Shown piece by piece: positions 28,307 to 60,740 of a stretch of DNA of 64,000 nt; within the stretch, counting starts at the first letter, position 1; the number at the start of each line of letters is the position of its first letter. The notes beneath the pieces are model-generated. The model did not search any database, had not been told where the DNA came from, and saw only the letters and a program-made list of their open reading frames with translations. A program made the position numbers and the translations under genes. This DNA comes from Callorhinchus milii (Eukaryota), in assembly GCF_018977255.1 (NCBI RefSeq), contig NW_024704772.1:124001-188000 (forward strand), in the 5' to 3' direction.

Positions 28307-29654
28307 AGACGACCCCTGTCTCCTGCACAAGGATCTGGAGGCCGGGCCGGTGAAGGCCTGCCTCAGGTCACTCCCGTTTGGCGATGCATCCTCCCAATGG
28401 CCGTGTGTCAATCCATTACTGGACACAGACAATGGTGTGGGTAAGTTAATGCATGTCATGTTTGAGGCTCATCTTCTCACACACTAATCAGCCTGGACTC
28501 GTGAAGTTGCACTTGCCCAAACTCTTAAGGATCTTTCACAGAGATGGATACTATTATTCTGGTCTAGATTCAGACCTAAATCCTAGAAAAATTTCTTATT
28601 AACTGGTAAATTGTGCACCCAATTGTTATAAAGTGTAATTTCTGGAGTACCCAAAATAACTTGAAACTTTTTGCCTTTTTCAGGGGATGCGTTCACCGGC
28701 TTGGACTGGATGGTTGAGAAGGTAGATCTCTTTGACACCCTGATTGAAGATGAAAGTGATCCTCCATCCCCAGAGGACCTGATGGCAGCACTGGATCGTT
28801 CTTGTGACCTTCTGGATGACCTGCCCTTTGACCCCTTGCCCAATAAACTACAAGTATCTGACCCTGTGCTGGACAATAATAATCTGGACTTTGGGGCATT
28901 CCCCACCTCACCCCTGGGATCTGATCAACTGGCCCCCGCTTCCCCCTCCCCCGTCAGCCTGAAAACCCCAGAACTTTTCTCCTCTCCGAGCCACTCAATA
29001 AATTATGAAGAGGAGAGTGAAACCAGTGTTTTAGATAATGATAAAAGGCTAGATTTGGCTTTGCTTCAATCATCACCACTTCAGAATTCCTGCAAAGAGA
29101 AGGATGAAGGGGCTTTATCTGACTCTGACAGTGGGCTTTGTAAAAGTCCAGTTCAAACCCTCGACAGTGGGCTTGACACAAGCCTAGCTCGGACTTCAGG
29201 GGGTGCTTTGTCGGACTCTGACAGTGGGCTTCCTGCAAGCCCCTGTCACAGTCCTGTTCAGTCTCCAGATAATAGCATGTCAGAAGGCTCCTCTCAATCT
29301 GGCCTGTCCTCACTGGAGAGTTTAAGCCCAGTCAGGTCGACACCGTACGACCGCCCTAATGCAGAGACAGTAGCAAAAGTAACACCAGCCAAAGTGAAAG
29401 TAATCAGTGGTGCAGAGCCGAAAGTTATAGAGAAAAAATTGAAGAAGATGGAACAGAACAAAAGTGCAGCAACACGGTACAGACAGAAGAAGAGAGCAGA
29501 GCAGGAAGCTATAACTGCAGAATGCCGGCAGTTAGAGGCAAAAAACCAGACCTTGCAGGAGAAAGTGGACTCTATGGCAAAAGAAATTCAATATTTAAAA
29601 GGCTTGGTAGATGAGGTCAGAAAAGCTAAAATTAAAAAAGAAAAAAGCTTGTAA
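28224..29654 (+). CDS. ATF4: Activating transcription factor 4 (bZIP); 2 coding exons, 395 aa
   Basis: Exons 28224-28440 and 28684-29654 (1188 nt). GDAFTGLDWMVEKVDL, PPSPEDLMAALD, PYDRP and the bZIP KKLKKMEQNKSAATRYRQKKRAEQE...EIQYLK. AATAAA at 29708-29713. Lies between MIEF1 and RPS19BP1 as in human. Confidence 0.97.
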
Positions 29655-31925: not shown

Positions 31926-32397
31926 AAGCACGATGACTGGACTGAGGTCCATTACGATAGAGATACAGACATGGCCCAAGAAGGGTACCTGATCCCTAAG
32001 TCAGTGCCTTCAGCAAACGAGGGGAGAGAATTGGGAGTCATTTTAGTGATGTGCTCTGAGAACCAGCAATTCAGCAGAGACATTCTTCACAATGTGATAG
32101 GTAAGCTGATGAACTATTATGACCCATTTTCTCTACGGCTCAATGACCCTGCTGAATAGGATTTCACTCCCAATAGTTTGCCAGCCCAGCTCACCCCGAT
32201 TCCTCCCATTGTCTGTGCTGCCGACTGGGTTTTCATAGACAAACGTGACTGCACAGTGGTTAGCTGCCAACTCAACAAAACCTGAGCCTCGAGTACATTG
32301 GTCTTGGCTTGATATTGACCCATTCATGGACCAGGTACACCTCAGGGTAGAGGTACCGCTGTTTTTTTTGGAGAAAACTGTTCCACTTTTATTGCAT

Positions 32398-32610
32398 CTC
32401 GTCACACTGGAACATCTCAAAGCACTTCACAGGAATTACCAGCAAGTGTAGTGACCGCTGTATTTGTAAACACAGACCTTGGTTTAAACGTCTCATCTGA
32501 AGGACGGCACCACTAACAATGCGGCCAGCAACCCTCCCACAGTGCTGCACTGGAGTGTCAGCCTCGACTGTGAGAGTCCTGACATGGGGCAGGAACCCAC
32601 AACCTTCCCC
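32398..32610 (-). mobile_element. Old Deu/AmnSINE-like SINE fragment
   Basis: tctcatctgaaggacggcacc...gctgcactggagtgtcagcc...gaacccacaaccttc resembles the AmnSINE/DeuSINE-type consensus as recalled. A related copy lies inverted at 33462-33830. Confidence 0.6.
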
Positions 32611-33461
32611 GGGCGGGCACTATTGGTGTGAATTAGTCGCTTGTAGGTCACTGCTCCTTTAAGAGAGAGTTTTATTTTAGTCATTTTTGGAATAACTCCC
32701 AAACCTAGTACCATAGCTGGGTGTTGCCTTGAGCTGGATGGTAAAGAGTGTCCACCAAGATAAAAGCTTTTAATTATCTCTTGCTGCTTCATGTAAGTGA
32801 GTGTGCGGAGCCCAGAGCCGAGGTCACCACAAGCCTCGGGAACAGAAAAGTTTGCAGTTTGTTACGCCCCCGGCAAAATCATCTGGCTGTCCGTGGGGAC
32901 AGTGGACCACAAGCCCCAACATTCAGGGTGAGCAGCAAAGTCATGGACGGGGGGAAAAGGACCGAAAGGGAAGCAATGGATCTTGTATCTGGTAAACCAG
33001 CCCACGTCCCACTGATCTCCTGCTAACACTGCAATCTGCCCGAGACTGATGGCAATGAGGCGGGGAGGCACAGTGGGTGAGGTTCCTATTCAGAGAAGCT
33101 GTGCTCGGGGGAGATTAAGACTTACTCAATTCAGGGAATTCAATACAGGAAGTTTTCTGCTGACGAGAAACAAGAAACTGTTCGCTTTCCGTAAATTGTC
33201 AATTAGGGAAATGAAATATTCCAAAATGAGCATTGCTTCCCCTGGCTTCTCGACACCCTGCAAACCAGTCCACCCTGTCCTCAGCCAATGTGCACACACA
33301 CACACACAGACACACACACACAGACACACACTGCAACCTGCTTACCCAGAGATCTGTGTTAATGATATCTGGGCTCAGTATCACACCTTCACACCCAGAG
33401 CGGTTTCGTGATCTGCCGTGATCTAATAAACTCAGGGGAATGGCTCAACAATCTCTTCCTG

Positions 33462-33830
33462 TTCCTATGATGGGATCTCAGTCTAAGCTGACTCTCCAAT
33501 GCAGCGCAGTGGTGGTGTGGGTGGGGTGGGCTTTCGTTGTCAGAGGTACCGTCCTTTGGATGAGATGTCAAACCGAGTTCCCTGTCTTCCTGTTCACATG
33601 GGTGTTAAAGATCTCATGGCACTATTTGAGAAGAAAAGGGAATTTCTCTCTCTCTCGGTGTCTTGGCCAACAATGCCTCAAAATGAAATTGCTCACTCAC
33701 TCCATGGCTGTGGGCAAATTATCTGCTGTGTTTCACCCACAAATACACCGCCACCCCACTTCACAGTAAACTACAGTAAATCCTATGAAGCACTTGGAGA
33801 CATTCTGTATCAAATGTAAGGATATTTATG
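33462..33830 (+). mobile_element. Old Deu/AmnSINE-like SINE copy
   Basis: tctaagctgactctccaatgcagc...ggtaccgtcctttggatgagatgtcaaaccgag...aagatctcatggcactatttgagaag, followed by the family tail. Confidence 0.6.
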
Positions 33831-34275
33831 ATAATAATCAAGAGCAGGAGCCCTCCCTAAGCCACGGACATTTGCTACCCTGCCTTATCACACTCTCAAG
33901 AATTTTACTTTGAAGTGTAGTGACTGTAGGCACTTTGTCACAATGCGCACACAAAGGAGAGCCGCCAGCGATTGGTGGAAAGTGTTGTGAGGGGGAATTG
34001 TTGACAGACGTTACATTAAAGTAATTTGAACCACAGTTCAAGGAGCCAAAAGTTGGAACAAAAGGCAGTTTCGGAAACAAAGTGATAACTGTCCGTGCGG
34101 CACCGGGCGGATAAATCCGGGTGTGTCTGAGGGACAGTTAGAGTCGGTCAAATAAGTCGATGCTGGAATTCTCACACACCATTGTTGAGCCGTAAAACCT
34201 TCACTGACTGGGACTCAGAACATAAAATGGCTGCAACCAACTGCAATATGGAGGCAGCTCAGTGACAGGCAGAGC

Positions 34276-34472
34276 CACACTGCCACCTCCTGGTGACCAG
34301 GCGACACTGCACGCTCACACTGCCACCTCCTGGTGACCAGGCGACACTGCACGCTCACACTGCCACCTCCTGGTGACCAGGCGACACTGCACGCTCACAC
34401 TGCCATCTCCTGGTGACCAGGCGACACTGCACGCTCACACTGCCACCTCCTGGTGACCAGGCGACACTGCAC
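34276..34472 (-). repeat. 40-bp minisatellite, 5 copies, each carrying an extended CTCF-like motif
   Basis: Plus-strand unit cacactgccacctcctggtgaccaggcgacactgcacgct at 34276, 34316, 34356, 34396 and 34436. Minus strand reads TGCAG-13 nt-CCAGGAGGTGGCAGT. Confidence 0.9.
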
Positions 34473-34876
34473 CGCGAGGACTGCACAACCCAGTATTTTG
34501 TTGCGTTCAGCCATGTCCCACAAACAGCCATGGTGTGAGCGACCAATTTTTATTTGGCCAGGACACTTGAAGTACCTCACCTAAAGGAAGAAAGTGGTTT
34601 GGATCCCAAAGTATAGAAAGTTTAATATTTAATTGTCACACGCCTCTAATACAGCAACGAGTCTGTCTTTAGTTAAGTAACTGTGATCCACTACTGACAC
34701 ATACCTAAATTTAAGGCTTTTGTCTTGATCCTTACTTAGGGACTTGTGTGAACAGTGAGGAACACCCCAACCCAGTCCATCCCACCCCAGCTTCACCAAC
34801 AATACATCCTGTACCTGCGGCTCATGGGCACGTTTGCTCTTGTTCAACATTCGCTCCAGCCACTGAGACTCCCAAG

Positions 34877-36367
34877 TTATTGCGGATTTCCAAAATATTC
34901 TTTCTCAAATGTCCTGAAGTCTTTCTCTGAGAAAACACTCTTTTCTTCCTTCTTTGCTTTCTCCTCTTCCGGAAGGTCTCTCGCTTTCCTCCCTCGATTG
35001 TAATTGAGAATCTGCACCAAAGCAGAGAATTGCTCCACGTTATAATCTATTGCTCTGAAATGCTCCCCTTGTGAAGGGTACGAGGGAAATACAAGTTGTT
35101 GTCGTTGTTCACTCCAGTAAATCAGAAGATTACAGGAGGCCATGCACTCCTCCAAACGCACACACACTCATGTGTGTATATGCACCCACAAACACGCCTG
35201 CACACGTGAACACACACATACGCTCGTGTGTATATGCACCAACACAGTACCGAGACACACCCGACCTTTTCAGTCGCACTCACCTGTCTGGTGATGCTGC
35301 TCTCAGTCTGTGAGCTCACGCCCAGCATGTACCGGAGATTGTCTTCAGTGTGGTCCGTACCCTGTCGTTTCCGATACTCCTCTGTCGAGGAAAGAGCGCT
35401 CTTATTAACACCCGGCAAGATGGAGTGGAGGACTAGTGGGAATGCTCATTGTATTCCCCTCAGTGGGGAAACCCACCGTGCGATGTGATGTGATGCCGAG
35501 CCACACAGTGGGGTCTAACCTGCGGTGATTTCTGATAACATTTTTTTACGGAGGATGTGTTGGATATGTGCAGGTCCTCCCTCACATGGACAGTGTCAGC
35601 ACGGGAGACAACCACTCGCCCCTCAATGTCCCCCACACGGGCGTCTACGTTCGCAACTCTTTAAAAGCCATCAGCAAGCGCTGGTCATCGCTGAAGGAAC
35701 AAAAAGGTGTGAGGGTCACGTACCGAGGGCTGACTTCACCGCCTTCCCCTTCACAGTGGATTTGACCTTTTTCTTTTGTGCATGAAGCCTCTGCCGCTGC
35801 TTCTTGACTCCTCTCTTGCCTGTGGTCCTCAGGCCGGTGCGGTCAGTCCCAGTCCGGCCACACGCCACCTTCCTCTTCACCGTCATGTCACTTTTACCTG
35901 AAACACAAGGCGGCGATCGCGTCAGAAACACAGTCAACAACGCACAGTAATTGGCCTCTGCGCTCGAGACGCTGCCGTGTGATAATGTGCCATAAAACAC
36001 AGAGTTTCATCTTCTTTGCCATCACACGGAGCAGCACCGACCGGGCGGCACTTTATTATAATAATAATAATAATAATAATCCTCGCACTTGGTACAGCAC
36101 CTAATCATTTTGATGACGATGACGCAAAGAGCTTCACATGATATTGCTGTCCAGTGGAGTGACTGTGCCTTTTGTGGGCTAAACAGGAGAGGGAGTGGGG
36201 GGAGAGGCGGGAGAGGGGAGAGAGGGGGGGAGGGGGAGAGAGGGGGGGAGGGGGGGGAGGGGGGAGAGAGGGGGGGAGGGGGGGGGAGGGGGGGCAGTGA
36301 AGCCCCACTTACCCCTGGTTTCCTGGCCCAGCAGCTCCAGGCCTTTCCTCACCAGCGACGCCGACAT
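34877..36367 (-). CDS. RPS19BP1: Active regulator of SIRT1 / RPS19-binding protein 1; 4 exons, 153 aa
   Basis: Exons 36367-36313, 35897-35724, 35381-35284, 35011-34877 (462 nt, GT-AG, in phase). MSASLVRKGLELL, KGKAVKSALEEYRKRQGTDHTEDNL and QILNYNRGRKARD...SVFSEKDFRTFEKEYFG match AROS. Tail-to-tail with ATF4 as in human. Confidence 0.93.
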
Positions 36368-36390: not shown

Positions 36391-36606
36391 CAGCGCCGCC
36401 CACTGGTCACACACAGCGCCGCCCACTGGTCACACACAGCGCCGCCCACTGGTCACACACAGCGCCGCCCACTGGTCACACACAGCGCCGCCCACTGGTC
36501 ACACACAGCGCCGCCCACTGGTCACACACAGCGCCGCCCACTGGTCACACACAGCGCCGCCCACTGGTCACACACAGCGCCGCCCACTGGTCACACACAG
36601 CGCCGC
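36391..36606 (-). repeat. 23-bp minisatellite (~9.4 copies) immediately 5' of the RPS19BP1 ATG
   Basis: Plus-strand unit cagcgccgcccactggtcacaca, repeated perfectly from 36391. Confidence 0.92.
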
Positions 36607-37220
36607 ATGCGCGGTGAGTTTGTGCGTATGTGTGGGGGAGAGTGTGTGTGTGGGGGGGGAGTGTGTGTGGGGGGGTGTGTGTGGTGTGTGTGTAGGGGGT
36701 GGAGGGAGGGTGTGGGGGTGTGTGTGGGGGGGAGGGAGTGTGTGTGTGGGGTGGAGGGAGGGTGGGTATGTGTGTGTGTGGGGGTGTGTTTGNNNNNNNN
36801 NNNNNNNNNNNNNNNNNNNNNNNNNNNNNNNNNNNNNNNNNNNNNNNNNNNNNNNNNNNNNNNNNNNNNNNNNNNNNNNNNNNNNNNNNNNNNNNNNNNN
36901 NNNNNNNNNNNNNNNNNNNNNNNNNNNNNNNNNNNNNNNNNNNNNNNNNNNNNNNNNNNNTGTGGGGAGGGGTGTGTGTGTGTGTGGGGGTGTTTGGTGG
37001 GGGGGGGGGTGTGTGGGTGTNNNNNNNNNNNNNNNNNNNNNNNNNNNNNNNNNNNNNNNNNNNNNNNNNNNNNNNNNNNNNNNNNNNNNNNNNNNNNNNN
37101 NNNNNNNNNNNNNNNNNNNNNNNNNNNNNNNNNNNNNNNNNNNNNNNNNTGTGGGGGTGTGTTTGGTGGGGGGGGGTGTGTGGGTGTGTGTGTGGGGGTG
37201 TGTTTGGGGGGGGGGGTGGA
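36607..37220. repeat. GT/G-rich low-complexity tract containing two assembly gaps (N 36793-36960 and 37021-37149)
   Basis: Visible directly. Confidence 0.95.
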
Positions 37221-60179: not shown

Positions 60180-60330
60180 GGAGGAGCAGTGACCATTGTC
60201 ACCAGCAGGTGGCAGGCTCGGGGTTGGCGCGTGCGCACTCGGCCCCTCCAGGGCCACAGGAAGTAGAACCAATTCGCGCCGCCGGAAGTGCAGTGAGTGC
60301 GCGCGAACGTCAACCGTCAAAGTGGTGAGA
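60180..60330 (+). promoter_or_regulatory. Small CpG-rich promoter-like element with CTCF and ETS motifs
   Basis: CCAGCAGGTGGCAG at 60202-60215, CAGGAAGT, CCAAT, CCGGAAGTG ~60282, candidate donor TG|GTGAGA ~60325. Confidence 0.5.
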
Positions 60331-60740
60331 CACCAACTGTCACACCAACTGTCACACACCCCCTCACACACACTCTGTCACACCCCCTCACACACCCCCT
60401 CACACACACCCCCTCACACACACTCTGTCACACCCCCTCACACACACTCTGTCACACCCCTCACACACACACCCTCACACACACACCCTCACACACCCCC
60501 TCACACACACTCTCACACACCCCCTCTGTCACACACCCCCTCACACACACTCTGTCACACCCCCCTCACACACACACACACACACACACACCCCCACACA
60601 CACACACCCCACACACACATACCCCCACACACACACACCCCCTCACACACACCCCCACACACCCCCTCACACACCCCCTCACACCCTCGCACAATCCCAT
60701 ACGCACATGAACCCTCACACACAGAGTGACACACACCCCC
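60330..60740. repeat. CA/C-rich low-complexity repeat (cacacccctcacaca)
   Basis: Visible directly. Confidence 0.9.

What the first reader, a model, noticed from the sequence alone, without database searches (positions are those of the whole stretch)
34276..34472. Minisatellite made of five extended CTCF sites (upstream motif plus core)
Seen: each 40-bp unit reads, on minus, TGCAG-tgtcgcctggtca-CCAGGAGGTGGCAGT (one unit CCAGGAGATGGCAGT). Knowledge: the CTCF core is CCASYAGRKGGCRS (1 mismatch here), and the zinc-finger 9-11 upstream motif TGCAG lies ~12-13 nt before it (13 here). The unit also holds the near-palindrome CCTGGT-G-ACCAGG. Inference: tandem amplification has built a same-orientation CTCF array ~400 bp downstream of the RPS19BP1 stop, pointing toward ATF4/MIEF1. 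It could act as a strong, copy-number-variable insulator or loop anchor.
Basis: partly seen in the sequence, partly recalled or inferred. Interest (0 to 1): 0.7.

Follow-up and report, generated by a model that had tools for sequence, protein, structure and literature searches.

The report
Five-copy CTCF-site minisatellite beside RPS19BP1
In the elephant shark, a short repeat just past the end of the RPS19BP1 gene holds five same-direction copies of a full-length binding motif for the genome-folding protein CTCF, so it is likely a strongly bound but untested boundary element of a kind already known from mouse and human.

Summary
The repeat is real: five 37-bp segments joined by four 3-bp junctions. 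It is also seen in three other sequencing runs, with variant units. Each unit carries a CTCF core plus the upstream motif at a known spacing. The core alone is within chance for the window (422 of 2000 shuffles); core plus upstream motif is not (2 of 2000). The window is elephant shark. The palindrome is unremarkable. Binding, insulation and copy-number variation are untested. Most likely one pre-existing CTCF site was amplified by ordinary minisatellite growth and acts as one high-occupancy anchor facing ATF4. Known kind: mouse DXPas34, human HRNR VNTR. The scan noted a similar array near XPA in this genome (e1-7791257, unchecked).

The parts
34276..34472 (-). Array 1: five 37-bp segments and four 3-bp junctions (period 40). 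Each segment spans -19 to +18 relative to the first base of the CTCF core.
34440..34471 (-). One of five extended CTCF motifs (others at 34280-34311, 34320-34351, 34360-34391, 34400-34431): 9-bp upstream motif, 6-bp linker, 3 bp, 14-bp core. The core has no CpG.
   Evidence: scores (recalled matrix)
34549..34554 (-). AATAAA hexamer 76 nt before the array in RPS19BP1 sense. ATTAAA at 34621-34626 and 34628-34633; next minus-strand hexamers beyond the array at 32388-32774. Use as poly(A) signals is inferred.
34877..36367 (-). RPS19BP1/AROS coding exons 36313-36367, 35724-35897, 35284-35381, 34877-35011 (153 aa). Last two introns joined by an RNA-type contig; first intron inferred from GT-AG and reading frame.
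36391..36606 (-). Array 2: 9 x 23 bp plus a 9-bp terminal direct repeat, 24 nt before the RPS19BP1 ATG. Each unit has a weaker CTCF-like core (2 mismatches; 14.7 bits); the 5'-most copy has an upstream-like pentamer (1 mismatch) at 12 nt.
34490..34551 (-). Fragment of a high-copy tRNA-type SINE next to the array. The array unit itself does not match the SINE profile.
28665..29654 (+). ATF4 last coding exon, convergent with RPS19BP1; the array's motifs face it
60185..60215 (+). Single-copy CTCF motif (0 mismatches, upstream pentamer with 1 mismatch at 12 nt), opposite orientation. 17 of 18 nt identical to the unit's core region.

Best explanation
The repeat is five head-to-tail copies of a two-part CTCF motif, likely made when one pre-existing CTCF site was duplicated as a 37-bp block and then amplified by ordinary minisatellite growth, and it likely works as a single high-occupancy CTCF/cohesin anchor facing ATF4. 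Shown: the array, the motif anatomy, the orientation, the excess over chance, and presence in other runs with variant units. Inferred: the single-site ancestor; binding by elephant-shark CTCF; that the 40-bp period lets one 11-finger array sit on each unit; and that five sites in 197 bp raise the chance that the position is occupied, not that they form five separate barriers. The amplification itself need not have been selected.
For: Core plus upstream motif is beyond chance at window level (2 of 2000; 0 matches in 100 shuffles) and unit level (0 of 40000, recalled matrix). The 9-bp upstream motif differs at 1 of 9 positions from the validated IL3 insulator motif (PMC12885311). The 6-nt spacing is bound in vitro, slightly more weakly (PMC10287918). 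The two-part motif is used from lamprey to human (PMC5504073), which brackets cartilaginous fish. Structures place ZF8-11 on -18..-1 and ZF1-7 on 21 bp (PMC10484683): 39 bp, or 40 with a 6-bp linker (my arithmetic), which equals the period. Flanking contigs of X1, X3 and X5 stop exactly 30 nt inside the array, as a 31-mer graph would at a tandem repeat (inference). Insulation rises with the number of strong co-oriented sites in a model and in cited tandem-site assays. Earlier scan notes, unchecked, describe splice sites and other factor motifs amplified into minisatellites in this genome, which favours a general process.
Against: No ChIP, footprint, methylation or Hi-C data for this locus. The core has G at a position that is usually C/T (-2.1 bits, recalled matrix). 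Motif scanning alone predicted binding poorly in human Hox clusters (PMC5504073). The copy-number effect in the model was computed at 180-bp spacing, not 40 bp, and depends on flanks, and tandem arrays of non-boundary sites did not insulate. The array is covered by RNA-type contigs in one run, so polymerase may pass through it. No orthologue was seen.
Confidence: 0.6

Rival explanations
1. The array's main effect is on RNA 3' ends: bound CTCF/cohesin slows polymerase II just past the proximal RPS19BP1 poly(A) signal, favours that site over distal ones and limits read-through toward the convergent ATF4 gene. This is compatible with the best explanation.
For: The array lies 76 nt past an AATAAA and about 1.5-1.9 kb before the next minus-strand hexamers. 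In run X5 a spliced contig runs past that AATAAA to 34458, and another contig covers 33850-34305 and beyond. [quoted passage not shown] IL3 sites block read-through.
Against: One run, guessed as RNA by the tool. Contigs show no strand, end or level. The RNA beyond the array could come from the ATF4 side. No 3'-end data.
Confidence: 0.15
2. CTCF-bound sites are preferred seeds of minisatellite birth, or are preferentially kept once amplified, in this genome; footprint-sized duplications multiply boundary sites.
For: Both near-perfect, non-low-complexity minisatellites around RPS19BP1 carry CTCF-like motifs. Of 31 TRF rows with period 12 or more, only these two score above 10 bits (2 of 6 higher-complexity loci). 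Chance for the 23-bp unit is 26-28 of 40000 shuffles. The duplicated block starts 1 nt before the upstream motif and ends 4 nt after the core. An 11-copy array near XPA was noted earlier (unchecked). TOP2B sits at CTCF sites (PMC5006368).
Against: Ascertainment: readers flag repeats because they hold motifs. Other functional elements are amplified in this genome too (unchecked). Real CTCF sites and GC-rich repeats both concentrate near promoters. The three known variant bases leave the motif intact, but that happens by chance with P = 0.17. No genome-wide test was possible.
Confidence: 0.12
3. The motif is unbound or irrelevant in vivo (chance, methylated or nucleosome-covered), and the repeat is a neutral GC-rich minisatellite.
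For: The core alone is within chance for the window (422 of 2000). The first stage reads many windows, so rare matches accumulate. The array's CpG observed/expected ratio of 0.49 is not island-like.
Against: The joint motif is reached in 2 of 2000 shuffles. The core has no CpG. Two further core-plus-upstream matches lie in the window (3 loci against 0.35 expected, 11 of 2000).
Confidence: 0.12

Closest known systems
Mouse DXPas34 minisatellite at Tsix (PMC3149622, passages)
   Same: Short-period (30-34 bp) minisatellite described as having a CTCF site in each monomer, next to a gene end or promoter, lineage-specific, with varying monomer number between species.
   Different: DXPas34 is CpG-rich, with degenerate motifs and a role in X inactivation. 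This array has only five near-identical units, each with core plus upstream motif, a CpG-free core and no functional data. No homology is claimed.
Human HRNR VNTR (bioRxiv 10.1101/2022.03.17.484784, passages)
   Same: Repeat units match the two-part CTCF matrix; site number scales with repeat length; proposed copy-number effect on local folding and neighbouring genes.
   Different: HRNR is a multi-kb coding repeat with measured allele lengths and expression associations. Here the repeat is 197 bp, non-coding, one footprint per unit, and length variation is unmeasured.
IL3 insulator CTCF sites (PMC12885311, passages and Introduction)
   Same: Core plus upstream motif, the upstream part matching at 8 of 9 positions; located past a gene's 3' end; tandem copies insulate in reporter assays.
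   Different: IL3 has two natural sites 1.3 kb apart, conserved across mammals and tested. They are not a minisatellite.
Clustered CTCF sites at TAD borders (bioRxiv 10.1101/668855, passages)
   Same: Several sites within 10 kb, near promoters, proposed to give redundancy.
   Different: Those clusters are described as gains of separate sites; the words 'tandem' and 'duplication' do not occur in that text. Here the cluster is made by tandem amplification at 40-bp and 23-bp spacing.

Membership tests
Minisatellite / VNTR | Head-to-tail units of about 10-60 bp with high identity | tested here: met
   40 bp x 4.9, 98% matches
Minisatellite / VNTR | Real in other samples, not an assembly artefact | tested here: met
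   X1, X3 and X5 flank contigs end 30 nt inside the array and in-array contigs exist; X15 showed no piece in it (3 of 4 runs)
Minisatellite / VNTR | Copy number differs between alleles | tested here: inconclusive
   6 of 9 listed in-array contigs carry 2-4 other letters, so unit composition differs; contigs cannot count copies and the table was cut
Two-part CTCF site | Core motif match | tested here: met
Two-part CTCF site | Upstream motif at a 5-6 bp linker | tested here: met
   6-bp linker in 5 of 5 units; spacing documented
Two-part CTCF site | Bound by CTCF in vitro or in vivo | not testable with these tools
   No ChIP or footprint data could be recognised among the 24 listed runs (library fields empty)
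Insulator / loop anchor | Enhancer blocking, cohesin occupancy or Hi-C boundary | not testable with these tools
   None available
Transposon-delivered CTCF site (as in lamprey hAT repeats) | Site lies in a dispersed high-copy repeat | tested here: not met
   The unit has no hit to the window's SINE profile, even with the array collapsed. The left flank is covered by a single contig at flank-level depth in X1 and X3 at 90% likeness. An older, more diverged element is not excluded.

The most novel reading that the evidence does not exclude
CTCF sites seed their own tandem amplification in the elephant shark genome: footprint-sized duplications at bound sites create families of copy-number-tunable boundary elements, here bracketing one small gene with two co-oriented arrays (40 bp = ZF1-11 footprint, 23 bp = ZF1-7 footprint).
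Probability: 0.12. Interest if true: 0.65.

Novelty: new member of a known kind. Interest (0 to 1): 0.3.

Why it matters
As a single locus it matters little: CTCF-motif minisatellites are known. It is a clean natural test case for two open points. One is whether CTCF sites packed one footprint apart are occupied together and add to insulation; the model and assays I read used wider spacing or did not state it. The other is whether allele length tunes a boundary or poly(A) site choice. If such arrays prove enriched genome-wide, they would add a transposon-independent route by which vertebrate boundary clusters grow.

Tried and rejected
No whole genome is held, so there was no genome-wide enrichment test and no orthologue. 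All 24 listed runs carry one organism label; no RNA holder is listed on record.

RNA hairpin: z = -7.1 against plain shuffles comes from periodicity. Against arrays of shuffled units the best of 8 tests was 20 of 400. Rejected as a feature, and hairpin-driven origin is not supported.

SINE origin of the unit: no hit.

Depth as copy number: the summed depth in the two in-array bins was 21-23 (X1, flanks 7-9) and 44 (X3, flanks 9-12), but the tool states this is no copy number, so it was not used. X15 was laid in the hope of an enrichment library; it showed no cover over the array and is uninformative.

A second register of the core, 3 nt shifted (14.6 bits), would put the upstream motif at a non-canonical 10 nt; not preferred.

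Purifying selection on motif positions: P = 0.17, not evidence.

PMC9144644 (HSV-1 insulator) and the T2T CTCF catalogue gave nothing on short minisatellites. No look-alike stretch elsewhere in the scan.

Searches that returned no listing describing this locus or CTCF minisatellites in cartilaginous fish: (listings only; the library lacks most subscription papers).

Full report
Setting. The ATF4 exon at 28665-29654 is 100% identical to a protein named Callorhinchus milii ATF4, so the window is elephant shark. Gene order on the left is an EIF3L-like gene (Pfam Paf67), a MIEF/MID51-like gene and ATF4 (all +), then RPS19BP1/AROS (-) and a rhodanese gene (-) (the names EIF3L and MIEF1 are my recall from those domains). 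A four-exon RPS19BP1 model gives an open 153-aa frame. No whole genome was held.

Observation. TRF gives 34276-34472, period 40, 4.9 copies, 98% matches. The exact anatomy is five 37-bp segments and four 3-bp junctions, 197 bp in all. On the minus strand each segment runs from -19 to +18 relative to the first base of the core. It starts 1 nt before the upstream pentamer and ends 4 nt after the 14-bp core.

Chance. The five matches are one event, so I collapsed both arrays to one unit. Cores with at most 1 mismatch then occur at 2 loci against 0.84 expected; 422 of 2000 block shuffles reach that, so the core alone proves nothing. Core plus exact pentamer occurs once against 0.001 expected (2 of 2000). 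A relaxed joint test finds 3 loci against 0.35 (11 of 2000); one search shows these are array 1, the 5'-most unit of array 2 and the single site at 60185-60215. With a CTCF count matrix recalled from memory, not taken from a call, the core scores 18.4 bits. Circular shuffles of the unit reach that in 8 and 18 of 40000, and never together with the pentamer. The weak point of the core is a G at a usually C/T position.

Comparison with tested sites. The unit's 9-bp upstream motif differs at one position from the IL3 insulator's, whose loss cut binding 3-fold and abolished enhancer blocking (PMC12885311; passages and Introduction). The 6-nt spacing is recognised in vitro, slightly more weakly, and the upstream part matters most with cores of intermediate strength (PMC10287918; passages). 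I did not open its supplements, which may bear on this core variant. Lamprey, chicken and human CTCF use the same two-part motif; that paper had no elephant-shark ChIP data and warns that motif scanning alone predicted human Hox sites poorly (PMC5504073; passages). Structures put ZF8-11 on -18..-1 and ZF1-7 on seven triplets (PMC10484683; passages). That is 39 bp, or 40 with a 6-bp linker, so the period equals one full footprint. This is my arithmetic, not a binding result.

Other runs. I laid 4 of 24 listed runs, all contigs. In X1 and X3, which cover introns, flanking contigs end at 34305 and 34443, exactly 30 nt inside the array. X5's left contig also ends at 34305. This is the pattern a 31-mer graph leaves at a tandem repeat (inference); no listed piece meets the tool's 31-letter rule for bridging the array. 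Of 9 listed in-array contigs, 6 carry 2-4 other letters (X1 2 of 3, X3 3 of 4, X5 1 of 2; the table was cut). The only printed variant (X5, 34381-34382) changes two linker bases and leaves both motifs intact. So unit composition varies between samples, and copy number was not measured. X5 has a contig joined across two RPS19BP1 introns that continues past the AATAAA at 34549 to 34458, a 70-nt contig of the unit, and a contig covering 33850-34305 and beyond. The array is therefore probably inside a long 3' UTR or read-through RNA, but this rests on one run with no strand information.

A second perfect array, 9 x 23 bp plus a 9-bp terminal repeat, lies 24 nt before the RPS19BP1 start codon. Its unit is also CTCF-like and on the minus strand (14.7 bits; 26-28 of 40000 shuffles). 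Of 31 TRF rows with period 12 or more, only these two arrays score above 10 bits. The 9-bp terminal repeat suggests birth by slippage between short direct repeats, whereas array 1 has a 3-nt junction and no exact terminal repeat (inference).

Rejected. The long RNA hairpin (z = -7.1) disappears with the right control. The neighbouring SINE fragments do not extend into the unit.

Mechanism. Most likely a single two-part CTCF site just past the RPS19BP1 poly(A) signal was duplicated and amplified. Its 3' end faces ATF4, the side that faces into the loop. A deep-learning model predicts more insulation with more strong sites, but at 180-bp spacing, with flank dependence, and cites arrays of non-boundary sites that failed to insulate (bioRxiv 10.1101/2024.08.01.606065; passages). 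I therefore expect one anchor with higher occupancy, not five barriers. A role in poly(A) site choice is a compatible rival (PMC8373115 review; passages). Earlier scan notes, which I could not check, describe another CTCF array near XPA and arrays of splice sites and other motifs in this genome. They moved me toward general minisatellite growth over a CTCF-specific process, though two CTCF-like arrays around one gene keep the latter open.

Known kinds. Mouse DXPas34 (PMC3149622; passages) and the human HRNR VNTR (passages) already show CTCF motifs multiplied by tandem repeats. Local duplication as a source of binding-site clusters is in print for flies (PMC3188502; search listing only). My searches listed nothing on this locus. 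Verdict: real, correctly read, functionally untested, a new member of a known kind; interest 0.3.

Noticed in passing
window 36391-36606: Second CTCF-like minisatellite (23 bp x 9.4, 100% identical) just 5' of the RPS19BP1 ATG, same orientation as the finding, next to a GCATGCGC (NRF1-like, recalled) motif.
   Followed up: partly
window 60185-60215: Single perfect CTCF core with an upstream-like pentamer, + strand, in a CpG-rich promoter-like patch followed by a CA-rich tandem repeat (60330-60684). It is divergent to the two arrays.
   Followed up: partly
window 33822-33928 and 34490-34551: Two same-strand SINE fragments that are nearly adjacent in the SINE profile (positions 300-401 and 211-275) but 561 bp apart here, with the array between them: either an insertion into one old SINE or two separate remnants.
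   Followed up: partly
window 34549-34554: The proximal AATAAA lies at the edge of the SINE fragment, where other SINE copies read differently, so it may have arisen from the remnant.
   Followed up: no
window 34871: X1, X3 and X5 all lack one base here, in the 3' UTR; X15 does not. Allele or assembly difference.
   Followed up: no
window 33850-34305: An RNA-type contig of run X5 covers this stretch beyond the array and continues left; source strand unknown.
   Followed up: partly
window 36793-36960 and 37021-37149: Two N gaps inside a G/T-rich repeat just upstream of array 2, so the promoter region is incompletely assembled.
   Followed up: no
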